NCBI GenBank assembly: GCA_014691105.1
Contig: GCA_014691105.1_4891.1
DNA length: 52,976 bases
DNA from: a phage
Direction: 5' to 3' (one strand)
Shown here one piece after another: positions 4,213-31,647 of this stretch (position 1 is its first letter; each line of letters starts with the position of its first letter). Position numbers and translations under genes: made by a program. The notes beneath the pieces are model-generated. The model was not told the origin of the DNA and ran no database searches. It was given only the letters and a program-made list of their open reading frames with translations.

Positions 4213-4518
4213 TAGTTGAAACTATTACCAGCGTTACTATCAACAAGAAACATGTTACCAAATTGTTAAAGAGCGGTCTGGTACTATTCGACCAGGTAAA
4301 GTTATTATTTGCGCATCTTGACGACACGCGCCAGACAAGACGCTTGACACATTCATCATTCGTCTTGATGTAATAATTATAGGCCAGTCAATCAATGTTG
4401 TACATAAAAGAATTGCAAGTTTATGCAAGTTTTTAGAAATGATAATCACTTGCGATTGAGAGTGGTTCTCATATGCAATTGATATAGTTTCACATGTAAT
4501 TACTCACTTCAAAATGGT

Positions 4519-4575
4519 CGGCAGGGGTTATAATCACATAGGGGTGCCACTTAAAGGAGCCGGCGAAATTATTTA
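4519..4575. repeat. copy 1 of a ~55-bp intergenic repeat (GGGGTTATAAT..AGGGGTGCCAC..AGGAGCCGGCGAAATT)
   Basis: Aligns at roughly 70% identity with 4693..4750 when read by eye; contains a perfect TATAAT. Confidence 0.6.
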
Positions 4576-4692
4576 TAAAAATATAATTTCAATCTGAATT
4601 ATAGACGCTTTGTGCTATAACGGCTGAAGTAGTTCATACGGTAATTGTATCAATCGCAATAGTTACCAGAGTAATCATTTCAATTGAAATAG

Positions 4693-4750
4693 GTGCGGCG
4701 GGGGGTAATTTCGCAGGGGTGCTACCTGCCAGGAGCCAGCGGAATTTTTT
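4693..4750. repeat. copy 2 of the intergenic repeat (GGGGGTAATTT..AGGGGTGCTAC..AGGAGCCAGCGGAATT)
   Basis: See copy 1; both lie in the divergent control region between the leftward and rightward early genes. Confidence 0.6.
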
Positions 4751-4967
4751 ATTTTTTCTCTATTTTCTCCTTATCAGGACCAATCATCATCAGAGTAACA
4801 CGGCAGGAGCTAACCTTTTGCTTATCACAATAATAAGTGAAGCCCCTCTAAAATTTTTTTATATTTTTCGGAAATTGTGTAGACACTCACTAAAAAGTGG
4901 TGTACTTTCTCTCCTCCACGCGCTATCATTAATGTGAATCATCAAACGGCCTCACGGTCTCCTACTT

Positions 4968-5456
4968 GTGGGTAACATTATGAAAATTGTTCAATTAGAG
5001 CCATATCCGCCTCAATTGGCTATCGTTTGCAGCGAAAAAGAGCACGAAGAGCTCCAAAAACTGATGGATTTGCCTGATTTTGGCAACTGGAATGACCGGG
5101 AAACACGTAATGCATCTACCTTTACATTCTCTCGCGTTAACTATCCGTACCTGTTAATCGTCGTCGAACTGTACCACCCGGACGACCTGAAGTACAACAC
5201 CATTTCCCACGAGGGCATTCACGTAATGTCGTCGCTGATGAACTATGTAGGGCTTAAATACGACCCAGAAAACGATGAATGGTACGCATATCAGCATGAT
5301 TTCATCGTAAATGCCATTTGTAAGGCCCATGACGAGTATATAGAGCGCCAAAAAACGCCAAAAACTAAGCCAAAAATAGAAACAGGTAACCATCCTGCAA
5401 TACTGCCACAAGACGTAATGAACTCGCTTTTGACTGACACTACTGGGGACTTTTAG
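4968..5456 (+). CDS. hypothetical protein with HExxH motif (possible zinc metallopeptidase-like)
   Basis: HEGIH motif in ISHEGIHVMSSL; first gene of the rightward block; start could be GTG 4968 or ATG 4980. Confidence 0.45.
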   Translation: MGNIMKIVQLEPYPPQLAIVCSEKEHEELQKLMDLPDFGNWNDRETRNASTFTFSRVNYPYLLIVVELYHPDDLKYNTISHEGIHVMSSLMNYVGLKYDPENDEWYAYQHDFIVNAICKAHDEYIERQKTPKTKPKIETGNHPAILPQDVMNSLLTDTTGDF

Positions 5457-6131
5457 GTGATTAATATAATCTTTGCAATGGGCCAAAATGGGGAATTCGG
5501 GTTGTCTCCGGAGTTTATGAAGCATCAGGTTAACTCGTGCAAGACCATGGAAGAGGTCCGTGCGCTTCCTAAATCGGGTCTGCCCTGGAAATGTCCGTCA
5601 GACATGCTCTTTTTCAGGACTATGACTAATTCAGTTGCGACAGAACCAGGCTATAATGCATATCAGCAACTACGTGGACAGTTCCCACAAGACCAGTTGC
5701 GAAACATGATAGCAGATGTAACGGTAAAAATGGTAGGACATAGTGTATTGTTAGCCGGTCGTAACACGTATATGACTATGAGTCTGCCTATGTCAGCCCA
5801 CAGAATACTGCTGCCGGTATCTCGCCAGATTATGGCTTCAGAAGGCTACAATAATTTGGGTGAGATGGCAGCAGACCTTGAATCCAGAGGTACTGACGTC
5901 TGGATTGTAGGCGGTGCCGAATTGATACTTTCGGCCCTTGAAGAACACGCAAAAGACTTACTCCGTATCGACAACATGTTTATCAGTACGATCAAGCAAT
6001 CAGGTCCAAGTGATATTTTAATGGATTGTAGCAAATTAATGATGTACATTGATAGCGACTTTACATATAATGATGAATATGTTGATAACAAACAAGTTCT
6101 GATACAACGGTACAGGAGTTTACATAAATGA
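5457..6131 (+). CDS. dihydrofolate reductase-like protein
   Basis: DHFR-like blocks IIFAMGQNGEFG, GLPWKCPSDMLFFRTMT, VLLAGRNTYMTMSLPMSAHRILLPVSR and VWIVGGAELI, with an insertion after the first strand. Confidence 0.55.
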   Translation: MINIIFAMGQNGEFGLSPEFMKHQVNSCKTMEEVRALPKSGLPWKCPSDMLFFRTMTNSVATEPGYNAYQQLRGQFPQDQLRNMIADVTVKMVGHSVLLAGRNTYMTMSLPMSAHRILLPVSRQIMASEGYNNLGEMAADLESRGTDVWIVGGAELILSALEEHAKDLLRIDNMFISTIKQSGPSDILMDCSKLMMYIDSDFTYNDEYVDNKQVLIQRYRSLHK

Positions 6132-6634
6132 ACATCATAATCGAGGGTCCGGATAATGCTGGTAAAACTACAGTTATTGAGTTCCTTAAATCTCATACTG
6201 GCCGCAGTGTTACTCATAATACTGTTGACAAAGATCCCGAATCGGTCATGGCTAAACAGACCAAAGAAAACGCGTTGGAAGGCGATTGTATTTATGACCG
6301 TAGCGCTGTTATATCTGAGTATATCTATTGTCTGGTTCTTCAACGTACGCCTGTCATCAATATTAATGTATCACATGTAGCAGATATGTGCGACAACGCC
6401 ATCGTTATCTTTTGTATGCCGCCTGTTGAAAAGGTACTGGCAACTACAAAAGACGAGATGCCTGGTGTTGTGGAAAATCTTGAGGCGTTATACAATCAGT
6501 ATGACAACCTCATTGACGAACTGGTTATGATGAGTAAGCAGTTCTTCATTTACGACTGGACTGTTGAAGAAGATGGTCCTGAAGCAGTTCTAGAATATAT
6601 CAACGAACGTATTAATAAGGAGTGGAACAAATGA
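6128..6634 (+). CDS. P-loop nucleoside/deoxynucleoside monophosphate kinase (thymidylate-kinase-like)
   Basis: P-loop GPDNAGKTT followed by a DRS motif (YDRSAVISEY); ATGA overlap with the DHFR stop. Confidence 0.5.
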   Translation: MNIIIEGPDNAGKTTVIEFLKSHTGRSVTHNTVDKDPESVMAKQTKENALEGDCIYDRSAVISEYIYCLVLQRTPVININVSHVADMCDNAIVIFCMPPVEKVLATTKDEMPGVVENLEALYNQYDNLIDELVMMSKQFFIYDWTVEEDGPEAVLEYINERINKEWNK

Positions 6635-7332
6635 GCCCAGTATACAATACCTCAGTCACGCTGTCCGCAACCGTAGGGGGCGTCAACAAGACTGTTACTG
6701 TGGGTTCAACTAACCCTAACCTATCAGGCGAAGACCTGTTGCGCATGGCTAAACGTGCTCTTGAAGATAACGAAGTGACTGGTACTGAAGGTGTCAGCAT
6801 TGAGATTAACATCGAGGGTTATGAAGAAAGCATCAGCATTGCTACTTCTGACGATGAAGCTTGTGAACAGCTAAAGTTCAACGATGAGCTGGAATATCGT
6901 ACCGGTGAGATGTTCAGCAGTGCGCTAAACTGGTACTTGTACAAGGCTTCAAACTACGCTGGCGCTCCTATGTCAGACCGTATGTTAGCTGACATGTCTG
7001 CACGTGAAATTGCTAAAGGCTGGGCGCATGTACAGATGCTGCAGGAGCGTATCTGCAAGCTGAAAAGCTGCAATAAAGACGCGTCTGAGCTTATTACTGC
7101 CTATAAGCGACAGATTAACGACCTGCAGCAACTGATGGGCAAACGCGCTGAAGAATATGAGGCTGAGATTCGCAGTCTTAACGGCACAGCTGTTGCTAAC
7201 AACCGTGCTTTCAGCGAAGAGCGTAAAGCGCTTATCGCCCAGCGTGACGCTGAAAAACGTCGTGCAGACGACCTGGCAGACCGTCTCAACTTTATCCGTA
7301 AGCATATGGATGCTATGGAAGGGGTAATCTGA
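6622..7332 (+). CDS. hypothetical protein (coiled-coil C-terminus)
   Basis: ORF track; start may be the Met at 6631. Confidence 0.5.
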   Translation: MEQMSPVYNTSVTLSATVGGVNKTVTVGSTNPNLSGEDLLRMAKRALEDNEVTGTEGVSIEINIEGYEESISIATSDDEACEQLKFNDELEYRTGEMFSSALNWYLYKASNYAGAPMSDRMLADMSAREIAKGWAHVQMLQERICKLKSCNKDASELITAYKRQINDLQQLMGKRAEEYEAEIRSLNGTAVANNRAFSEERKALIAQRDAEKRRADDLADRLNFIRKHMDAMEGVI

Positions 7333-7622
7333 TGGACCTGTTCGATATGGTCGAACATCCTGAAGTAAACGGCTTGGCGGAAGCTAAGCCTTTTAACTGG
7401 GATGAATTCGTAGCAGGCAAACCTGCTGTAACCCACAACGGGCAGATTGCATATTACGGAGGCCATAGCGAACATCCGATGTGCACTCACCTGTACAACG
7501 CTATAACAACCATAACCGACGAAAACGTTATTAAATACGGAAAAGAAGTAATGTCTTTTCTTGTAGATGAACGCGGTTACTTCGAAGGTAAATGGTTCCC
7601 GTTTCTGGTAGAAATGGCATAA
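7332..7622 (+). CDS. hypothetical protein
   Basis: ORF track; ATGA overlap with the upstream gene. Confidence 0.5.
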   Translation: MDLFDMVEHPEVNGLAEAKPFNWDEFVAGKPAVTHNGQIAYYGGHSEHPMCTHLYNAITTITDENVIKYGKEVMSFLVDERGYFEGKWFPFLVEMA

Positions 7623-7738
7623 AAACCGGATAAATATAAAGGCGTCTAAGCTAGTTCTTCATCTATATAAGCTACTTATTCGCCTTTCTGCTGTAGACTT
7701 TCTCATCATCTCTCTAGACACTTCATTTTTATATTCTG

Positions 7739-7767
7739 TTTACTTACTTCGCGTAACTCGTTATAAT
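7739..7767 (+). promoter_or_regulatory. sigma70-like promoter TTTACT-N17-TATAAT
   Basis: TTTACT at 7739-7744 and TATAAT at 7762-7767, upstream of the terminase genes. Confidence 0.55.
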
Positions 7768-7799
7768 CCCGACTATCCGGATTAACGAGGACGATACCA

Positions 7800-12978: not shown

Positions 12979-13000
12979 CCCACAAACGGGACTAACAAAA

Positions 13001-13030
13001 GGCGAGCTGACGAGCTCGCCTTTTTTATTT
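13001..13030 (+). terminator. rho-independent terminator
   Basis: 8-bp stem GGCGAGCT/AGCTCGCC with GACG loop followed by TTTTTTATTT. Confidence 0.75.
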
Positions 13031-13056
13031 ACACGTATAAAGTTCTGGTATATAAT
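13028..13056 (+). promoter_or_regulatory. sigma70-like promoter TTTACA-N17-TATAAT
   Basis: TTTACA 13028-13033, TATAAT 13051-13056, then GGAGG RBS before the 13083 start. Confidence 0.55.
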
Positions 13057-13082: not shown

Positions 13083-13583
13083 ATGGCATACACACTTGTT
13101 GTGGAAGACGGTTCAATTGTTCCGGGTGCTAACTCGTATGTTAGCACTGCAGAAGTTGATGAGTTTATCACTAACGAAGGTATTCTTATTCAACCAGGAA
13201 CTGACCCGTACTACCAAGCTGCCAAAGCAGCTATTCGACTGGATAACCAATTTAACTGGTTAGGTCGTAAGGTCAGCAAAGCGCAGAACATGGCTTGGCC
13301 ACGTACTGGCCTCGGTGCATGCAATGTTGACATCGCGGAGTCTGTAATTCCGCGAGAAGTTAAGCTGGCACAGCTTTATATGATGGCCAGTGTATTGAGC
13401 TATGACGGCGAAGAAGGTGTGCGTAGCGACCAGGCTTTGCGCCGTAAGAAAGTTGGTAACCTGGAGATTGAATACTTCGACTCCAAATCAGGCGTTACCG
13501 GTGCAACTGACCTTTGGACGTCAGACGTCAGGGCCATGCTCAAGCACCTTGTGGGTGCATCACTGAGAGCGCGGAGAGTATAA
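13083..13583 (+). CDS. putative head completion / head-tail adaptor protein
   Basis: Position after the capsid gene; no diagnostic motif. Confidence 0.3.
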   Translation: MAYTLVVEDGSIVPGANSYVSTAEVDEFITNEGILIQPGTDPYYQAAKAAIRLDNQFNWLGRKVSKAQNMAWPRTGLGACNVDIAESVIPREVKLAQLYMMASVLSYDGEEGVRSDQALRRKKVGNLEIEYFDSKSGVTGATDLWTSDVRAMLKHLVGASLRARRV

Positions 13584-14071
13584 TGATTCGTATACGCCTT
13601 GAACGTCGCGACAAACAAAAGTTCGAGTTCACCTACCGTGCCTTTAAGTCGTTTGAAGGTCAAGGCGTATCAGTAGGTGTTCATCCAGAGCACAACAGAC
13701 GTATAAATCCCAGGGACCGTATAACAAACGCCGAGCTAGCAATGGTGCATGAGTACGGTCTTAACGGTCTGCCAGAACGAAGCTTTCTTCGTAGTGCTGT
13801 TGGTGGCAGGGGTAAAGGCCGACAGGCAATAAACAAAGCTTTCCGCGATAATGTACCTGCTGTTCTCAGAGGAAGCATGACTGCGCATGAGCTTAACGAC
13901 AAAATAGGTCGTATGCTTGTTGACGCTGTTCACGATAGAATGGACAGTGACGTGCCACCTCCTAACACCGAGCTGACAGAAGAACGCAAACGCGGGCCAG
14001 GTACACTTAGAGAATCTATGCAGTTGTATGATTCGATAGGGTACAAAGTTGGCAGAAACTGGAGGCTATAA
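13583..14071 (+). CDS. putative virion morphogenesis protein
   Basis: Track ORF 13514..14071; ATG at 13583 overlaps the upstream stop (TAATG) with a GGAGAG RBS. Confidence 0.35.
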   Translation: MIRIRLERRDKQKFEFTYRAFKSFEGQGVSVGVHPEHNRRINPRDRITNAELAMVHEYGLNGLPERSFLRSAVGGRGKGRQAINKAFRDNVPAVLRGSMTAHELNDKIGRMLVDAVHDRMDSDVPPPNTELTEERKRGPGTLRESMQLYDSIGYKVGRNWRL

Positions 14072-14448
14072 TGCTCAAGATAACTTCACTAATGAAGGAT
14101 AAAACCTTTGTAGCATTAACAGATGTTCTTCTCCGAAATGATTCACGCTTACCAAACGGCGACTTCGAAGACGAATATACAGCTGCAAAGTATCTGTGTA
14201 ACATTCAACCTGGTGCAGCTACTAACCAGCCTAACCTGTTGACTAAAGACGATGGCGAGCATGAGTTCCCACGTATTGCGATATACTGTGGACAAGAACT
14301 AAAGCTCGGAGACTTCGTTATATACGAAGACCAGCCATACCGTGTATTCCGTATCGACCCATGGAGTCGTCATGGCCACTACTACGTTACAGCAATTCTC
14401 CATAAAGGACCTCAGGGAGCTCGTTCAGAAGCTTTTAACATTACCTGA
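14071..14448 (+). CDS. hypothetical structural protein
   Basis: ORF track; its 3' end overlaps the next ORF by about 77 nt. Confidence 0.35.
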   Translation: MLKITSLMKDKTFVALTDVLLRNDSRLPNGDFEDEYTAAKYLCNIQPGAATNQPNLLTKDDGEHEFPRIAIYCGQELKLGDFVIYEDQPYRVFRIDPWSRHGHYYVTAILHKGPQGARSEAFNIT

Positions 14449-14899
14449 CGGTGCATGCATTATTGGTGAAGAGTCTGGTACAGTTGATGGTACGCCGTAT
14501 GTTTATCTGCGTCCTGGTGATGCTTATGACTTCGGACCTCCTAGAACCAGACAAGGCTCTGACGGCTTTGAGTACGTCAGCAAGCCAATGATGACAGCTG
14601 TACGTATTACAGCTGTCGGTAAGAATGCTGCTGAGCTAATGCGTAAGCTACACATAGCGCTGGGTAGTTCACCAGCTAAGCAGTTTAACCGTTTACGGCA
14701 TTATGCAATAACCAAAATATCGAAGATTGATAATGTCGGTGGTGCTATTGGTGCAGGCTATGCTCAGAAGTCAATGCTGACTGTTGATATTAGCTATGTG
14801 CATAAAGTTAAAATTGAGCAACCGTACATCTACAAGGTTGACATCACTTGTATGGATGACAACGGTAACAAAGCGACTGGTACAGTAGAGGAACCGTAA
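14372..14899 (+). CDS. hypothetical structural protein
   Basis: Track ORF 14342..14899; first ATG at 14372 (MATTTLQQF...). Confidence 0.35.
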   Translation: MATTTLQQFSIKDLRELVQKLLTLPDGACIIGEESGTVDGTPYVYLRPGDAYDFGPPRTRQGSDGFEYVSKPMMTAVRITAVGKNAAELMRKLHIALGSSPAKQFNRLRHYAITKISKIDNVGGAIGAGYAQKSMLTVDISYVHKVKIEQPYIYKVDITCMDDNGNKATGTVEEP

Positions 14900-15522
14900 T
14901 GGCAACTGAAGTAGACCCGGAACTGCAAGCGCAGCTGGATAAGCTAACCACTGCTGTCCAGCTCATTCATGACTTCGGTATGTCAGGCGACCCAAACATC
15001 CCTAACCCGGAAGGTGGTGTCATACGCACACTCGAAGGCATTAACGCTGCAATCAACGAAGCTATACCAAACTTTGAAAACGCTAACGAAGCTGCTATCC
15101 AGGCGCGTGCTGCTCGTGACGCGGCTATTGCAGCCAAAGAAGCTGCAGAAACGGCAGCTGAACAGGCCACAGTAGCTTCGACGTCAGCAATCTATGAGTA
15201 CGGTAACGTTGCAAGTGCAGCTACAGTGACTATACCAGCTGCGTCTAAAACAATTGTCAGCCTTACTCTTAACCAGCCAAACACCGTAATTAATATCGGT
15301 GGTGTGTCTGACCCGTCTACTGTTGCGCGTCAGATTACTATTGCTATTAAGCAAGGCACTGGTTCTAACAAGGTGACTTCTTGGGATCCAAGAATAAAAT
15401 GGGCCAACAACAGGAAGCCCGTTCTGTCATTCCTTGTGGGTTACACAGATGTTGTTACGTTGCTGACCTTTGACTCAGGCGCAACTTGGATGGGTTTCTT
15501 TAACGGTGGATGGATTAAATAA
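14899..15522 (+). CDS. hypothetical structural protein (Ala-rich coiled-coil N-terminus)
   Basis: ORF track; ATGA coupling on both sides. Confidence 0.4.
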   Translation: MATEVDPELQAQLDKLTTAVQLIHDFGMSGDPNIPNPEGGVIRTLEGINAAINEAIPNFENANEAAIQARAARDAAIAAKEAAETAAEQATVASTSAIYEYGNVASAATVTIPAASKTIVSLTLNQPNTVINIGGVSDPSTVARQITIAIKQGTGSNKVTSWDPRIKWANNRKPVLSFLVGYTDVVTLLTFDSGATWMGFFNGGWIK

Positions 15523-18479
15523 TGCACACGATGTTGCTTAAAGACGGATCAGACCATCGAGCTAATGTCGAAAGCCTTATCGAAGGTCACCACCATTTTC
15601 TTGAGCGCAATACTGGCAGAACTGACGACGCTACGCGTCAGCACTATATCTTCAATCCAGAAGGAGTAGTGTCGAACAACCGCCATTTTATTGCACACAC
15701 CATGATGGAGTATCAACCTAACGGTGATGCTCCGTCTGAAAGTCAGTCGCTGCTAATACTCGGCGAAATTCACGCGTACCTTGCTACTAAGGAACAGCGG
15801 TACCTTGACAAAGCAATTGAGTACTTCAATGCTTACGTCAAGTACTATTACGAGGGGGACCCAATCCCTGATACTCCTCGTCGCTGGATCGCTAACTGGC
15901 TTTGTAATGGCAAAGAGCCTGTGCTAGCCAGCTTCCCAATCAACCCTGATTCACCAACACAAGGCGGCTATAAAAATGTGCCAGTTAAATTTGTTAACGG
16001 CAAAGCACAAATCCCTCATGGTTCTCCTTTCTGGGGCGAGTACCTGGATGTTGCTACTTGGGCCCACAGGGGACACATGGCTTGGCCTGCTATTAATGGT
16101 GGTGTCCGTGTTATTAAAAATAAAGTTGACTGGGACGATATTTACAACAATTATCGCATCACTACCATGCCAGCTGACCCGTGGAATCAGTTAGCCTGGA
16201 TTGACTGGCCGAGGTATCTGGGTGAACCAAGCTACACTGTGGACTGGTCAGCGGCTGAACCTCCTGTACATCTCATCGAGTATATTGTTGCATGGACCAA
16301 TAACAAGATTGGTGTTCTACCTGGCAAAAACGATGAGCTATGGGGAGGCGAGATTCTTGAGACTGGACTGCCTGACTCTCGCAGAGGTGAGATTCAGCTC
16401 CGTGACCACACTGTTAACGGTGTGTATCTGCTTAACTATGCCGTTAAGCTTCCTGTTGAACACGGTGGTTATTTGCTTAAGCGAAATGAAGTATGGCACA
16501 ACAGACCGGTAAACGTTCCATTGTACGGCGAGCTTCAACGCGGTAATGCTGCTGATGCTGAGTTGTGGTTCTGTGACTGCTGCTATATGCTGTGGCGAAT
16601 TACTAACGAGCAAAAGTATTACAACGCTTGGCAAGCTGTCCTGTTTACACTGGAGGAGTATATTGACATCGATAAACAAGACCAGTTCTTCCGACAAGAC
16701 ACTCACGCGTCGTCTCCGTTTACTGATGGCATCTCTTATGATTGGTCTTATCCTGAACTGGCACAAGCTATATATTCACGTGATGAAAATGGTTATATAG
16801 TTCTACGTCAGAACGAAAAAGCTCAATCATCTCTGGAGCAGCAGGCTGTATGGTTTAAGTGTAAGCCAACAGCTAAGATACGTACAGAAGTTGGGGGCAA
16901 AGATGATGCTGGTCAGAATATCAGTGTCAAGGTGGAAATGTACATGAACCGTGAAAAGGTTGACGTCGAGCAAAACATCTATCGTTTTGTCACACAGCTA
17001 CCTGCTCTTGGTGCTTCACCTGCTAACTACGACATTCCATTAAGCGATTTTGTCGCAGGTACTAAGCCAGATGGTTCTGAGTATATCTTAGCTGATATTC
17101 GTTCATCCACTGACTATGGCAATGCCACTACTGCAGTGTCTTACCGTACTGACATACTTGACAACAGACGTGGCAACACTGTCCGTATGACAATACCGGA
17201 TAGTTCGTCAGGTGCCATTATAGGCTTTTGGCTACTGGAATCTTCCCAGGCACCTTTAAACTCGCTGACGTATACTTCTACAGGTCCGTTGTGCATCAAA
17301 GTAACTGACGCGCAAGGCTGGAGTTGGGTACGTGATTTACCTGCCGCACCAGGATGGGTAACTCAGCAGATTCGCACCTGGGAGTTCAGGCTGGCGTCAT
17401 ACCAGGAAAACACAGGTACACCACCAGCTAGCCCACAATTCGGCGAGATTAAGCAGTTCTCGTTTGTACTGCCTGACGGCGTTAATACGTCGACAAGTAT
17501 TAGCTGGTACTGTGTGAATGATGTTCCGCCTCGCTATAACTGGCCAATTGGTTATACGATTAAGTATCGTCTTACTTTCTCGGCTGATAACCCGTACACA
17601 GCTAGGCTTGGCGACTGTACTGTGCTGGACTATGAGAATGATAACCTTGCTTACACGCCAGGTGTTATTCCGTTCTCCAACATTTATAACCCTGATTCTA
17701 AGCAGTTCGATGGTTGGCACGGTATACCTTACCCTGGCTATCAGTATCCGTTTGTCTTTACGCATGACGATACTGCAGCAGGTACAATCAGGCTGAACAA
17801 CATGGTTAACTTTTTGTACGATTCTCAGCAATGGTACTATAAGAAGTTTGGTCAGCTAGGTCCTGGTGCATCTGCTTTTATCTGGAACCGTTGGGATAAC
17901 TTTAAATACGGTGTACCTGATACGTTTACCATGTATCACTGGGGTAATGGTAGTGCATGGTCAGGTTACCAGCCTCGTGCTTATTTCTCCGCAGCACGTG
18001 GATGGTATGAGCTAGTAAACCGTGGTAAGCCAGTTCCGAGTAAGCTTATTGCTTATGTGGATAACTGGTCAAAATGGTTGCTTGACTTCATGGAAAGGTC
18101 AGGAGGTGTGTCGCCTTCTAACTTCCCACAAGAAGGTGTTGCTCTGCCAGTCCCTTCAGACTTCACAGGTCACATGTGCGGACTATGGCTTGCTGGTGCA
18201 GCTATGTCAGCCCTTTGTGGGTCAACAGTATCAGGACTGGATAAGCTGATGGACATGCTTGTCAATGAGCTGGAAGACCATTACGACATAACTGGTATTC
18301 CGGGGCATGTAATGGATGGTGGTTGGTCACCAGCGTTACGCCTTGAAACTGGTTCAGGACCTGAAAGCAACGCCATGTACTATGGTTTTTACTCTGGCGA
18401 AATATTACGAGGGTTGGGCTTATACCTGCTGTACAAAAACAAAGGGGCTAAAGCAGATATTTATGATTTAGGCCCGTAA
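15522..18479 (+). CDS. large virion-associated protein (985 aa), possible carbohydrate-active tailspike-like protein
   Basis: Long Trp/Tyr-rich ORF inside the structural operon; function guessed from composition only. Confidence 0.4.
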   Translation: MHTMLLKDGSDHRANVESLIEGHHHFLERNTGRTDDATRQHYIFNPEGVVSNNRHFIAHTMMEYQPNGDAPSESQSLLILGEIHAYLATKEQRYLDKAIEYFNAYVKYYYEGDPIPDTPRRWIANWLCNGKEPVLASFPINPDSPTQGGYKNVPVKFVNGKAQIPHGSPFWGEYLDVATWAHRGHMAWPAINGGVRVIKNKVDWDDIYNNYRITTMPADPWNQLAWIDWPRYLGEPSYTVDWSAAEPPVHLIEYIVAWTNNKIGVLPGKNDELWGGEILETGLPDSRRGEIQLRDHTVNGVYLLNYAVKLPVEHGGYLLKRNEVWHNRPVNVPLYGELQRGNAADAELWFCDCCYMLWRITNEQKYYNAWQAVLFTLEEYIDIDKQDQFFRQDTHASSPFTDGISYDWSYPELAQAIYSRDENGYIVLRQNEKAQSSLEQQAVWFKCKPTAKIRTEVGGKDDAGQNISVKVEMYMNREKVDVEQNIYRFVTQLPALGASPANYDIPLSDFVAGTKPDGSEYILADIRSSTDYGNATTAVSYRTDILDNRRGNTVRMTIPDSSSGAIIGFWLLESSQAPLNSLTYTSTGPLCIKVTDAQGWSWVRDLPAAPGWVTQQIRTWEFRLASYQENTGTPPASPQFGEIKQFSFVLPDGVNTSTSISWYCVNDVPPRYNWPIGYTIKYRLTFSADNPYTARLGDCTVLDYENDNLAYTPGVIPFSNIYNPDSKQFDGWHGIPYPGYQYPFVFTHDDTAAGTIRLNNMVNFLYDSQQWYYKKFGQLGPGASAFIWNRWDNFKYGVPDTFTMYHWGNGSAWSGYQPRAYFSAARGWYELVNRGKPVPSKLIAYVDNWSKWLLDFMERSGGVSPSNFPQEGVALPVPSDFTGHMCGLWLAGAAMSALCGSTVSGLDKLMDMLVNELEDHYDITGIPGHVMDGGWSPALRLETGSGPESNAMYYGFYSGEILRGLGLYLLYKNKGAKADIYDLGP

Positions 18480-18485
18480 CCACTA

Positions 18486-18514
18486 TTTACTTAACCGAGG
18501 CGCCAGCCTATAAT
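18486..18514 (+). promoter_or_regulatory. sigma70-like promoter TTTACT-N17-TATAAT with flanking palindrome
   Basis: TTTACT 18486-18491, TATAAT 18509-18514; the -10 lies between inverted repeats GCGCCAGC and GCTGGCGC. Confidence 0.5.
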
Positions 18515-29674: not shown

Positions 29675-30320
29675 ATATCATAAACTACTTATTCAACAGT
29701 ACGCTGATAAGCCAAAAGCTGTTGCAACTATTAATGGCTTCGATGATGCAATTCAGGGTATCTGGGACGGCGCCCAACAAGTTGTTGATAGCCTTAATAT
29801 CGATAAAGCTTTCGGTAAAGGTCTTGATAATGTTGCAGCCCGCGTCGGCGCATCTCGTGTTCTTAAAAAAGGCGTAGACCGTAAGTTCTTCGGCTTTACC
29901 AACAAAGTACCAGACGTGCTTGGTTTCGGCGGTTCGTCTGGTAATAAAGGTGGCCCGTTCTATCGCTACGGTGCATCAGTATGGGACCCGGTAATTCTTG
30001 ACGACATTGACCTGCGTACTTACATCAAGATGAAAATCTGGAAGAACATGCAAGACGGTACTATGCCGTATCTAATTGACTTCCTGATTGAATTCTTCGG
30101 AATGAATAACTTCGTTATAACTGACAACGAAGATATGACAATGACTCTGGAGATATACAGTACTCTGACACCACTTAAGCAAGTGCTGATTCAGAACTAC
30201 GATATACTTCCGCGCCCCACAGGGGTAAAGATTGAACTTAACACGAGCGTTGACGTTACGGATAGTCTGTATCGTTATGCTACTGTAAACTTACCAGCAC
30301 AGGTGAATGTATATGGCTGA
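29661..30320 (+). CDS. putative baseplate/tail-fibre attachment protein (gpI / Mu gp48-like)
   Basis: 219 aa after the J-like gene, overlapping starts. Confidence 0.45.
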   Translation: MLMAEYHKLLIQQYADKPKAVATINGFDDAIQGIWDGAQQVVDSLNIDKAFGKGLDNVAARVGASRVLKKGVDRKFFGFTNKVPDVLGFGGSSGNKGGPFYRYGASVWDPVILDDIDLRTYIKMKIWKNMQDGTMPYLIDFLIEFFGMNNFVITDNEDMTMTLEIYSTLTPLKQVLIQNYDILPRPTGVKIELNTSVDVTDSLYRYATVNLPAQVNVYG

Positions 30321-31647
30321 TGTACAAACAAGACCCGATAACGACATCTTCGCCAGCTCCGCGGGTACTGGTGAACTGCTGCCGTTCGGTGACCTTGCTC
30401 GTGGCTGGGGTGCAACCCTTGGCTACTCTGAAGGTATTCCTCCGATGGAGTGGTTTAACTTTATCGGTAACCGTACTGACAAAGGTATCCACTATATCCT
30501 TCAGCAGGGTGTTGATGTATGGGTAGAAACTGAGACCTACCCGGTTGGTGCACTGGTTAAAGTTAACGCCGACAATATGTTGTACCGTTGTCTGGTGCAG
30601 AACATTAATATGCCACCGTCTGCTAACCCTACACAGTGGCGCCCTGTACTCGACCTGACTGCGGCAACTGCGGCAGCACGACAGGTTGGTAAAGCTTCTG
30701 GTAACGTAATCCAGGTCGGTGCATTTGGCTTAGGTGGCAACGCTGAGGTAGTTACTAATGCTAACAGCATTGTAAACGACGGTATCTACCAGCTTCCAGC
30801 GTCAGGTACGGGCGGACCTACTAACGGCGTTGAGACTGAGATTCTGCATATCAACTGGGATGAGAAAAACGCTTCACAGTGGGGACGCACCAAGGGTAAG
30901 CGCGTAATAACCATGCGTGAGAAGGTTAACAATACCTGGGGCGGATGGTCATACTCTTACGGGCCTGATAATAAACCTACGGCATCTGAGCTGGGCATTA
31001 ACCAGGACTTCATCCCTATGGATGGTTCTGACTCAATCCGCGGCAACTTAGGTACTGTAGGCTGGTTACATATTGCACGTACTACTTCCGACTTGCTACG
31101 TGCTGCTAACTCCGCCGGTGTAGGTACTGTTGAGTATTCTGGTAACATCGCAGGCGGTACTGCTGTTCAGGAGTTGCTGACTTCAGTTTCTGTAGCGGCT
31201 AACAGTAATGTTGTCACTGCTGCTCGCTGGGGATCTGTGCCTATGTCGCACATCCAGCACATCCTTGTGGCTGGCGGTGCTACACAGATTAACATGGCAG
31301 TATGTCGCCCTGGTGGTATTGCCGACCGCCGTACAGTAGCTTTGCAGGTGGATGGCCTTAACAGCCGAGTAACTACCACAAATAGCTTTATTTTATGTGA
31401 GAATGGTGTTAGAGTATATTCACCTAACAACCCGCAGCCTATCGATACTTCAGCCGGTAACGTTCGGGGTATTCGACTCGGCGCTCGTATTGCTGCTGGT
31501 GTATCCGAGTCAACGTTCTACCCTGGGCATGTAATGACTGGCTGGCGCTTCGGCAATAAGAAAGAGCTGCGCGGTGGTACATACTGGTCAGCGCCGTTAC
31601 AGTATTATATCAACGGCACTTGGATTAACGTAAGCAACGTATCGTAA
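30307..31647 (+). CDS. tail fibre protein
   Basis: 446-aa ORF followed by two tail-fibre-assembly chaperone genes; likely start at ATG 30313. Confidence 0.55.
   Translation: MYMADVQTRPDNDIFASSAGTGELLPFGDLARGWGATLGYSEGIPPMEWFNFIGNRTDKGIHYILQQGVDVWVETETYPVGALVKVNADNMLYRCLVQNINMPPSANPTQWRPVLDLTAATAAARQVGKASGNVIQVGAFGLGGNAEVVTNANSIVNDGIYQLPASGTGGPTNGVETEILHINWDEKNASQWGRTKGKRVITMREKVNNTWGGWSYSYGPDNKPTASELGINQDFIPMDGSDSIRGNLGTVGWLHIARTTSDLLRAANSAGVGTVEYSGNIAGGTAVQELLTSVSVAANSNVVTAARWGSVPMSHIQHILVAGGATQINMAVCRPGGIADRRTVALQVDGLNSRVTTTNSFILCENGVRVYSPNNPQPIDTSAGNVRGIRLGARIAAGVSESTFYPGHVMTGWRFGNKKELRGGTYWSAPLQYYINGTWINVSNVS

What the first reader, a model, noticed from the sequence alone, without database searches (positions are those of the whole stretch)
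15522..18479. 985-aa Trp/Tyr-rich protein inserted between head-completion genes and the Ig-like proteins
A gene of this size is not expected at this point in a Mu/P2-like structural module. Its aromatic-rich composition is reminiscent of carbohydrate-active enzymes such as polysaccharide depolymerases, though this is a guess. It may be a receptor-binding or capsule-degrading tailspike in addition to the classical tail fibre.
Basis: inference. Interest (0 to 1): 0.55.

Follow-up and report, generated by a model that had tools for sequence, protein, structure and literature searches.

The report
Glycosidase-like tail protein with adaptor
The 985-aa gene is real and encodes a phage particle protein whose predicted structure is a sugar-cutting-enzyme barrel with a built-in sugar-binding module, apparently hung on the tail by a small adaptor protein encoded just upstream; the family is widespread and already annotated as 'tail protein', but its sugar target and its place on the virion are still unknown.

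Summary
In detail: ORF 15522-18479 (+) encodes 985 aa (111.7 kDa) and has the highest aromatic content of the 25 structural ORFs. The window is a Rosemountvirus, 99.6% identical to Escherichia phage CF2; the gene is BP63 gp29, annotated 'tail protein'.

Invariant E73, D345 and D792 sit in motifs that resemble the GH8 catalytic motifs. Sequence homology to GH8 is not statistically demonstrable.

The orthologue in phage S144 (gp17, 111 kDa) was found in virions by mass spectrometry.

The upstream 207-aa gene is a conserved partner. Its C-terminal domain always accompanies the big protein, while its N-terminus is swapped for lineage-specific tail-docking domains. That is the pattern of an adaptor.

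Homologues include phi92 gp141 and rV5-like bas54_0026, which is dispensable on E. coli K-12.

Verdict: this is an accessory, adaptor-tethered, glycosidase-type tail protein. It is a known family, biochemically uncharacterised, with unknown substrate.

The parts
14899..15522 (+). 207-aa (21.8 kDa) partner gene, proposed adaptor. The N-terminal ~95 aa are lineage-specific and include an Ala-rich, probably coiled-coil stretch. The C-terminal ~110 aa form a domain conserved wherever the large protein occurs.
   Evidence: phrog_27998 'tail fiber protein'. The C-terminal domain is 35-39% identical to the gene directly upstream of the homologue in EmilHeitz, Hena2 and phi92. The six-lineage alignment A3 has 16 invariant positions. 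Relatives' N-termini are PF03906 (T7 tail-fibre N-terminal domain) or PF18668 (Tail_spike_N). S144 gp16 (21 kDa) was detected in virions.
15522..18479 (+). 985-aa (111.7 kDa) glycosidase-like tail protein, the finding itself
   Evidence: ORF; phrog_2871 at 1425 bits; BP63 gp29 'tail protein'; AF2 model pLDDT 89.6, pTM 0.86.
15522..15911 (+). Barrel segment 1 (aa 1-130; helices 13-29, 72-89, 92-109). Contains candidate catalytic acid E73 (15738-15740) in the motif PSESQS; the family consensus is [AG]T[TS]EGQ.
   Evidence: E73 is invariant in 67/67 sequences (A1) and 39/43 (A2). hhalign places it opposite BcsZ E55.
15912..16541 (+). Beta insert 1 (aa 131-340). Includes a hypervariable, indel-rich stretch at about aa 200-250.
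   Evidence: Secondary structure. Alignment occupancy is 0.57-0.79 at aa 201-275. 11 of the 31 SPLA2/SPLA11 differences fall in aa 200-249.
16542..16706 (+). Barrel segment 2 (aa 341-395; helices 344-361, 364-381) with the invariant motif N-A-A-D345-A-E347-L-W349 (D345 = 16554-16556)
   Evidence: D345 is conserved in 40/43 and W349 in 40/43 divergent members. It aligns with the BcsZ signature A-S-D116-G-D-V-W.
16707..17651 (+). Beta insert 2 (aa 396-710): all-beta, CBM-like sandwich module(s). It is the least conserved part.
17652..18476 (+). Barrel segment 3 (aa 711-985; helices 752-776, 816-833, 840-859, 883-898, 906-919, 955-974). Carries conserved D792 (17895-17897), Y816-Q817-P-R819, H884 and E960.
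13028..13056 (+). Promoter-like site (11/12 match) just after a terminator-like hairpin (12997-13024). It may start the transcription unit that ends with the 207-aa and 985-aa genes.
   Evidence: Consensus scan only. BP63 annotates a promoter at the same relative place. Not evidence of function.
18486..18524 (+). Promoter-like site (TTTACT-17-TATAAT) immediately after the stop codon. The TATAAT lies in the loop of an 8-bp GC-rich inverted repeat (18500-18507 / 18517-18524). It marks the boundary with the Ig-like genes.
   Evidence: A promoter is annotated at the same place in BP63.

Best explanation
Genes 14899-15522 and 15522-18479 form a two-gene tail-appendage cassette.

The 985-aa protein is a virion-borne carbohydrate-active protein. 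A GH8-like (alpha/alpha)6 catalytic barrel is interrupted on its active-site face by two beta inserts. The larger insert is a CBM-type glycan-binding sandwich.

The 207-aa protein is an adaptor. Its lineage-specific N-terminus docks on the tail, and its conserved C-terminal domain holds the enzyme.

On contact with a cell, the CBM-like module and barrel cleft bind a surface glycan chain. The barrel probably hydrolyses it, with E73 as general acid and D345 and D792 as the other carboxylates. This helps the phage attach to, or move through, a conserved polysaccharide layer, while the Mu-type fibre (30307-31647) determines host specificity.

Shown: the ORF, the fold, the residue conservation, the gene pairing, virion presence in a close relative, and dispensability of a distant homologue on K-12. 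Inferred: catalysis, the adaptor-enzyme contact, the attachment site and the substrate.

For: 2. Conservation points to the barrel. 12.7-13.1% of barrel positions are invariant, against 4.1% in insert 2. Among members only 18-34% identical, E73 is kept in 39/43, Q75 in 41/43, D345 in 40/43, D792 in 34/43 (plus 3 Glu) and E960 in 38/43. These residues lie at the N-terminal ends of the predicted inner helices.

3. Motifs. The family motif GTSEGQ resembles BcsZ TTSEGQS, whose E55 is mutated in the inactive complex 3qxq. AADAELW resembles ASDGDVW. hhalign gives an in-register alignment over 302 columns.

4. Virion presence. S144 gp17 (111 kDa; 25 peptides, 33% coverage) and gp16 (21 kDa) were found by ESI-MS/MS. 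HHpred in that study also suggested a hydrolase (PMC7432712). The mass computed here is 111.7 kDa.

5. Adaptor. The small and large genes are adjacent in six lineages. The small protein's C-terminal domain is conserved. Its N-terminus is PF03906 in podovirus phiR8-01, where the pair occupies the T7 fibre slot, and PF18668 in the rV5-like phage. Natural fusions of the large protein to Tail_P2_I or to the podophage fibre-tail adaptor Gp77 exist.

6. Accessory role. bas54_0026 (30% identical, E 7e-106) tolerates disruption on E. coli K-12 (bioRxiv 10.1101/2025.11.20.689424).
Against: - No enzymatic activity has been shown for any family member.
- Sequence homology to any CAZy family is not demonstrable. 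Pfam and NCBIfam give no hit, even on insert-deleted barrels. The profile score against BcsZ is no better than shuffles (362/3000 and 1642/3000). hhalign gives P = 0.07.
- At the GH8a base position the family has Gln817, not Asp. D792 as the base is a guess.
- The rV5-like branch lacks the RWDN motif, and a few members lack E73.
- The adaptor-enzyme contact and the oligomeric state were not modelled.
- Reported receptors of phages carrying the family are heterogeneous: O-antigen, LPS inner core, cellulose and ECA. No single substrate emerges.
- Gene order would equally fit attachment at the neck, since the pair is the last two genes of the neck operon.
Confidence: 0.6

Rival explanations
1. 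Non-catalytic receptor-binding protein. The barrel and CBM-like module only bind a glycan, lectin-like, giving reversible primary adsorption without cleavage.
For: Gln occupies the GH8a base position. Some branches lack D792 or E73. There is no significant sequence match to any active GH family. CBM-like modules bind rather than cleave.
Against: E73, D345 and D792 are invariant in all 67 closer members and kept in most distant ones. Binding alone rarely needs three carboxylates at a toroid's active-site face. The catalytic-acid motif matches GH8 residue for residue in the family consensus.
Confidence: 0.2
2. Serotype-specific capsule or O-antigen depolymerase tailspike that sets host range.
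For: It has a carbohydrate-enzyme fold and is a virion protein. S144 needs O-antigen. The review PMC5380687 lists phi92 gp141 as 'glycosidase' among depolymerases.
Against: There is no beta-helix tailspike fold. Identity is 43-48% between phages of different host genera and 97-98% within the genus across serovars, whereas type-specific depolymerases diverge quickly. Host-range variation in this lineage was mapped to the Mu-type fibre (PMC7432712). The homologue is dispensable on K-12.
Confidence: 0.08
3. Purely structural or assembly protein of the tail or neck ('tail formation protein') that merely reuses a toroid fold.
For: Some records annotate it 'tail formation protein'. The gene lies in the neck operon. 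It is abundant in the MS data.
Against: A homologue can be disrupted without loss of infective virions. The cassette moves between myo-, podo- and jumbo phages with unrelated tails. Conservation is focused on putative active-site residues.
Confidence: 0.07

Closest known systems
Phage phi92 gp141 with gp140; also PVP-SE1 gp50 and the rV5-like 'lateral tail fiber protein with glycosidase domains' (bas49_0025, bas54_0026)
   Same: Full-length homologues: 43% identity to gp141 and 30% to bas54_0026. The same small upstream partner is present; gp140's C-terminal domain is 39% identical. gp141 is listed as a 'glycosidase' of the multivalent adsorption apparatus.
   Different: There the pair lies inside the baseplate/fibre cluster; here it follows the neck genes. 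The partners' N-termini differ. gp141 is not placed in the 2026 phi92 cryo-EM structure, and that paper never mentions it. The rV5-like branch lacks the RWDN motif.
Loughboroughvirus S144 gp17 and Rosemountvirus BP63 gp29
   Same: Orthologues with the same position and size: BP63 98.7% nucleotide identity; Loughboroughvirus about 82% amino-acid identity. S144 gp17 was detected in virions, and HHpred hinted at a hydrolase.
   Different: Nothing substantive differs. This is the same gene, annotated only as 'tail protein'.
Glycoside hydrolase family 8 (E. coli BcsZ, C. thermocellum CelA, CPF_2247)
Adaptor-plus-tailspike systems (K1-5/SP6 gp37-type adaptors; CBA120 TSP and G7C gp63.1/gp66 branched complexes)
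   Same: A small protein with a tail-docking N-terminus carries an enzymatic receptor-binding protein. Relatives of the 207-aa protein use the same docking domains, PF03906 and PF18668.
   Different: The cargo is a toroid enzyme, not a trimeric beta-helix spike. The adaptor's conserved C-terminal domain has no Pfam family. The comparison with K1-5/SP6 rests on my own knowledge and was not tested here.
Yersinia phage phiR8-01 g043/g044
   Same: The same cassette (about 43% identity), sitting in the T7 gp17 fibre slot.
   Different: It is a podovirus, and there the pair appears to be the only fibre-type receptor binder. Its reported receptor is the LPS inner core.

Membership tests
phrog_2871 / phi92 gp141-like tail protein family | Full-length sequence homology | tested here: met
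   phrog_2871 E = 0, 1425.7 bits, aa 3-980. 533 phage records by tblastn. 375 clusters at 50% identity with E <= 1e-3.
phrog_2871 / phi92 gp141-like tail protein family | Presence in the virion | not testable with these tools
   Shown only for the orthologue S144 gp17 by ESI-MS/MS (PMC7432712).
Glycoside hydrolase family 8 (clan GH-M) | (alpha/alpha)6 barrel fold | tested here: met
Glycoside hydrolase family 8 (clan GH-M) | Detectable sequence homology to the family profile | tested here: not met
   No PF01270 hit at E <= 10, even for insert-deleted barrels. The HMM score against BcsZ is no better than shuffles. hhalign gives Prob 0.8%, P 0.07.
Glycoside hydrolase family 8 (clan GH-M) | Catalytic acid Glu in the [ST][ST]EGQ motif at the start of an inner helix | tested here: met
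   E73 is invariant in A1 and 39/43 in A2. The consensus is ATTEGQS / GTSEGQ against BcsZ TTSEGQS (E55; E55Q in 3qxq). The window protein itself reads PSESQS.
Glycoside hydrolase family 8 (clan GH-M) | Second conserved Asp in the A-[ST]-D-[AG]-D signature | tested here: met
   A-A-D345-A-E-L-W against A-S-D116-G-D-V-W. D345 is kept in 40/43 and W349 in 40/43. The signature pattern itself is recalled from memory.
Glycoside hydrolase family 8 (clan GH-M) | Catalytic base Asp in S-Y-D-A-x-R (GH8a) | tested here: not met
   hhalign places Y816-Q817-P-R819 opposite Y242-D243-A-I-R246, so Gln replaces the base. D792 (34/43) may substitute from a nearby loop, as alternative bases do in other GH8 subfamilies (my knowledge), but this is untested.
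Glycoside hydrolase family 76 | Colinear match to PF03663, including the catalytic Asp-Asp | tested here: not met
   Only 6/43 divergent members hit. The best is 23.1 bits, below the 25.9 cut-off. Member aa 72-127 align to profile positions 224-282 of 366, which is a single hairpin out of register. The 4c1s hit at E 0.029 is the same hairpin motif.
Classical phage tailspike depolymerase | Right-handed parallel beta-helix catalytic domain | tested here: not met
Carbohydrate-binding module (beta-sandwich type) | Beta-jelly-roll CBM fold | tested here: met
Tail-fibre/tailspike adaptor (207-aa partner) | Tail-docking N-terminal domain plus a cargo-binding C-terminal domain, encoded next to the cargo | tested here: inconclusive
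   Adjacency holds in six lineages, and the C-terminal domain is conserved. Recognised docking domains occur in relatives (PF03906 at 36.3 bits; PF18668 at 41 bits). The window protein's own N-terminus matches no family, and no physical interaction was tested.

The most novel reading that the evidence does not exclude
The protein is a virion-borne, GH8-like beta-glucanase that recognises or cuts bacterial (phosphoethanolamine-)cellulose. This would explain why transposon insertions in the cellulose-synthesis genes (yhjL/N/Q/R/S/U = bcs) protect S. Typhimurium from Rosemountvirus SPLA2 (PMC10949491).

Supporting hints: GH8 is the family of the cellulose-synthase-associated endoglucanase BcsZ. 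The insert's best structural match is a beta-glucan-binding CBM11. The rV5-like homologue is dispensable on K-12, which carries a bcsQ pseudogene.

If true, it would be the first phage tail enzyme shown to use biofilm cellulose as a receptor or substrate. The same cassette might also account for unassigned fibre density in phi92.
Probability: 0.12. Interest if true: 0.75.

Novelty: new member of a known kind. Interest (0 to 1): 0.42.

Why it matters
Most characterised phage polysaccharide-degrading enzymes are trimeric beta-helix tailspikes. This family is different: a toroid (alpha/alpha)6 enzyme with an inserted CBM.

It is large (375 clusters at 50% identity) and is carried as a portable adaptor-plus-enzyme cassette by myoviruses, T7-like podoviruses and jumbo phages of many Gram-negative hosts. 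These include therapeutic candidates such as phi92-like, rV5-like, FelixO1-like and Rosemountvirus phages.

No substrate, activity or virion position is known. The newest phi92 structure leaves a fibre unassigned and does not consider gp141.

Its strong conservation suggests a conserved surface glycan as target. That would matter for broad-host-range engineering, for anti-biofilm enzymes, and for interpreting receptor screens such as the cellulose dependence of SPLA2.

For this window itself the gene is an ordinary, already-sequenced lineage component.

Tried and rejected
- GH76 membership: rejected. The hits are sub-threshold, cover one hairpin and are out of register.
- Proving GH8 homology by sequence failed by every route: Pfam on full and insert-deleted sequences, an HMM against BcsZ with 3000 shuffles, and hhalign against a single sequence, which gave an out-of-register alignment at Prob 0.16%. 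The diverse-profile hhalign was in register but had P 0.07.
- PDB GH8 entries retrieved through BcsZ were too similar to each other to build a useful GH8 profile.
- The exhaustive representative search returned only clear family members in its top 150, so there was no bridge to annotated cellular families.
- SPLA2 (cellulose-dependent) against SPLA11 (LPS-dependent): all virion proteins are 93-100% identical apart from an Ig-domain deletion, and the catalytic motifs are identical. The phenotype cannot be assigned to this protein.
- SD286 'gp38' (2026 receptor-binding-protein paper) is a 123-aa protein and a different gene.
- The Sf14 (Mooglevirus) structure paper describes only two fibres and no homologue.
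- Schwarzer et al. 2012 (PMC3457257) is not held in the library.
- The N-terminus of the 207-aa protein has no paralogue in the window that would reveal its docking site.
- The BFVD fold search found only generically annotated 'tail fiber' relatives.
- NCBIfam gave no hits.
Full report
**Observation**

The ORF at 15522-18479 (+) exists exactly as described: ATG start, 985 codons, 111.7 kDa. Its aromatic content (W 3.7%, Y 6.4%, W+Y+F 13.6%) is the highest of the 25 structural ORFs of the window. The others average 8.1% with sd 2.4, so z = 2.3. The enrichment is real but modest.

Upstream lie head-tail adaptor Ad1, Neck1, a small head protein and the neck/tail terminator. Downstream lie two Big_2 Ig-like proteins, then sheath, tube, tape measure, baseplate and a Mu-type tail fibre with two chaperones.

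**Identity of the window**

The region is 99.6% identical at nucleotide level to Escherichia phage CF2, and 96-99% identical to about 45 Rosemountvirus genomes, including BP63 and UPF_BP2. It is about 76% identical to Loughboroughvirus.

In RefSeq BP63 the gene is gp29, 'tail protein', and the upstream 207-aa gene is gp28, 'tail fiber protein'. GC content equals that of the neighbours, and the position is conserved throughout both genera. The gene was therefore not recently inserted; it is a lineage feature.

**Family**

PHROGs places the protein in phrog_2871, 'tail protein' (1425 bits). Pfam and NCBIfam have nothing, and no PDB sequence matches.

tblastn finds full-length homologues in 533 phage records:
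- Ounavirinae/Kolesnikvirus, 45-48% identity
- phi92-like and other Stephanstirmvirinae, about 43%
- jumbo phages (PBECO4, SPFM, Goslar)
- podoviruses (GAP52, Yersinia phiR8-01)
- Vequintavirus, about 29%
- Vibrio, Aeromonas, Alteromonas and Photobacterium phages

An exhaustive HMM search counts 375 clusters at 50% identity. phi92 gp141 is 43% identical over the full length.

**Structure**

An AlphaFold2 model built on a 67-sequence alignment is confident (pLDDT 89.6, pTM 0.86). Eleven long helices, at the N-terminus, in the middle and in the C-terminal third, form a split (alpha/alpha)6 barrel. Two beta regions (aa ~131-340 and ~396-710) are inserted in the long loops on one face.

No beta-helix tailspike appears.

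The architecture is thus a glycosidase-type barrel with an inserted CBM-like sandwich.

**Is it an enzyme?**

Conservation is concentrated in the barrel. About 13% of barrel positions are invariant, against 4% in insert 2.

In a second alignment of members only 18-34% identical to the window protein, the best-kept residues are:

| Residue | Conserved in |
|---|---|
| E73 | 39/43 |
| Q75 | 41/43 |
| D345 | 40/43 |
| W349 | 40/43 |
| Y740 | 41/43 |
| Q741 | 42/43 |
| D792 | 34/43 (+3 Glu) |
| W813 | 42/43 |
| R819 | 40/43 |
| E960 | 38/43 |

By their position in the predicted secondary structure, these lie at the N-terminal ends of the inner helices. That is where (alpha/alpha)6 glycosidases build their active site (inference).

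The family consensus around E73 is [AG]-T-[TS]-E-G-Q. E. coli BcsZ (GH8) has T-T-S-E55-G-Q-S, and the inactive BcsZ complex 3qxq differs from wild type exactly at E55Q. The motif A-A-D345-A-E-L-W resembles the BcsZ signature A-S-D116-G-D-V-W.

With the diverse profile and the inserts removed, hhalign aligns about 300 columns in register. It pairs E73 with E55 and D345 with D116. It also pairs Y816-Q817-P-R819 with the BcsZ base motif Y-D243-A-I-R, so a Gln occupies the GH8a base position. D792, in a loop 25 residues upstream, is a candidate alternative base (inference).

**Limits of the GH8 claim**

The similarity is not statistically demonstrable:
- Pfam's GH8 model does not hit, even on insert-deleted barrels.
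- hhalign gives P = 0.07.
- In a shuffle test, 362/3000 and 1642/3000 shuffled BcsZ sequences scored at least as well as the real one.

Six divergent members weakly hit Pfam GH76. That hit is sub-threshold, covers one helical hairpin and is out of register, so it is generic toroid-repeat similarity.

I therefore file the protein as 'works like a GH8-type toroid glycosidase', not as a GH8 member.

**Virion presence and dispensability**

In Loughboroughvirus S144, ESI-MS/MS of purified particles detected gp17 (111 kDa, 25 peptides, 33% coverage) and gp16 (21 kDa). These correspond in order and mass to the 985-aa and 207-aa proteins. The authors noted an HHpred hydrolase signal and a Phyre2 model unlike a spike or fibre (PMC7432712).

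In the rV5-like phage Bas54 (MaxBurger, identified through taxid order and accession), the homologue is bas54_0026 (30% identity, E 7e-106). It is among the tail-fibre genes that tolerate transposon disruption on E. coli K-12 (bioRxiv 10.1101/2025.11.20.689424). This family member is thus an accessory component, not an essential structural part.

**The partner gene**

The 207-aa ORF ends in TAATG, overlapping the start of the large gene. In EmilHeitz and other rV5-like phages, Hena2, phi92, phiR8-01 and PBECO4, the homologue is always directly preceded by a 157-269-aa gene. The C-terminal ~100 aa of that gene are 35-39% identical to the C-terminus of the 207-aa protein, with 16 invariant positions across six lineages.

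The N-termini differ. In phiR8-01 it is the T7 tail-fibre N-terminal domain (PF03906, above cut-off), and the pair occupies the T7 gp17 slot. In the rV5-like phage it is the CBA120/G7C Tail_spike_N docking domain (PF18668, above cut-off).

Natural fusions join the large protein to a P2 gpI baseplate-wedge domain or to a podophage fibre-tail adaptor domain.

The simplest reading is an adaptor (docking N-terminus, cargo-binding C-terminus) plus an enzyme, forming a cassette that moves between tail types. The docking site in Rosemountvirus is unknown. The N-terminus of the 207-aa protein has no paralogue in the window. Promoter and terminator consensus scans suggest the pair ends the neck operon, so a neck location cannot be excluded.

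**Substrate**

The substrate is unknown. Reported receptors of phages carrying the family are heterogeneous:
- O-antigen for S144
- LPS for SPLA11, and cellulose-synthesis genes for Rosemountvirus SPLA2 (PMC10949491)
- LPS inner core for phiR8-01
- ECA for Vequintavirinae

The cellulose result is intriguing given the GH8-like barrel and the CBM11-like insert. However, SPLA2 and SPLA11 differ little in any virion protein and not at all in the catalytic motifs, so the phenotype cannot be assigned.

The high conservation across host genera and serovars argues for a conserved glycan rather than a type-specific capsule or O-antigen.

**Comparison with the literature**

phi92 gp141 was listed as a 'glycosidase' of the multivalent adsorption apparatus (review PMC5380687, citing Schwarzer 2012).

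The 2026 phi92 cryo-EM study leaves 'fiber II' unassigned. It considers gp140 but never mentions gp141.

BASEL annotates the rV5-like homologue as 'lateral tail fiber protein with glycosidase domains'.

No biochemical or structural characterisation of any member was found.

**Verdict**

The protein is not a classical tailspike and is probably not a type-specific depolymerase. The gene belongs to a known, annotated but uncharacterised family.

The added value here is fourfold: the split GH8-like barrel with its CBM insert, the candidate catalytic residues, the conserved adaptor-enzyme cassette, and a testable link to cellulose.

Noticed in passing
window 18547-19185 and 19194-21326: There are two consecutive Ig-like (Big_2) proteins, 212 aa with 2 domains and 710 aa with 8 domains, the latter annotated 'major tail protein'. 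In SPLA11 the long one lacks one Ig repeat (622 aa against 709). It is the most variable virion protein between SPLA2 and SPLA11 (83% identity). In the S144 proteome gp18 (22 kDa) had 80% coverage, but gp19 is absent from the list of detected proteins.
   Followed up: partly
window 18486-18524: Directly after the stop codon there is a promoter-like TTTACT-17-TATAAT. Its -10 hexamer lies in the loop of an 8-bp GC-rich inverted repeat (GCGCCAGC / GCTGGCGC). This may be a combined terminator and promoter at the operon boundary. BP63 annotates a promoter at the same place.
   Followed up: partly
window 28131-28502: This 123-aa baseplate-module ORF is probably the counterpart of vB_EcoM_SD286 'gp38'. 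That is a 123-aa DUF protein reported in 2026 to inhibit adsorption and proposed as a receptor-binding protein (PMC12946066). I did not verify the correspondence by sequence.
   Followed up: no
window 16119-16271 (aa ~200-250 of the 985-aa protein): This is a hypervariable, indel-rich stretch within beta insert 1. It holds 11 of the 31 substitutions between SPLA2 and SPLA11, and alignment occupancy across the family is low. It may be an exposed specificity loop.
   Followed up: partly
phage records PP583539.1 and MG0656xx (hits H18/H100, H69-H74, H137 and others): A 'Listeria phage' record is 97% identical to this Rosemountvirus. About 18 'Campylobacter phage' records are 98% identical to E. 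coli rV5-like phages. The host labels look wrong, possibly through contamination or mis-assignment.
   Followed up: no
L010 (PBECO4, locus 4445-7769): In the jumbo phage PBECO4 the adaptor-plus-enzyme pair sits alone among non-structural genes (a nucleotidyltransferase, a spanin, an HNH endonuclease), away from any tail module. This fits a mobile cassette.
   Followed up: no
L016 (Bas54 MaxBurger, bas54_0025): The adaptor homologue bas54_0025 is not among the tail-fibre genes reported as dispensable, although its cargo bas54_0026 is. The adaptor may carry other fibres as well (it has a Tail_spike_N domain), or it may have too few TA sites to be scored.
   Followed up: no
window 13514-14071 / 14071-14448 / 14342-14899: The mechanical ORFs of the neck genes overlap substantially (for example 14342-14899 against 14071-14448). 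RefSeq BP63 uses later start codons, so the true start of the terminator gene here is probably 14372.
   Followed up: partly
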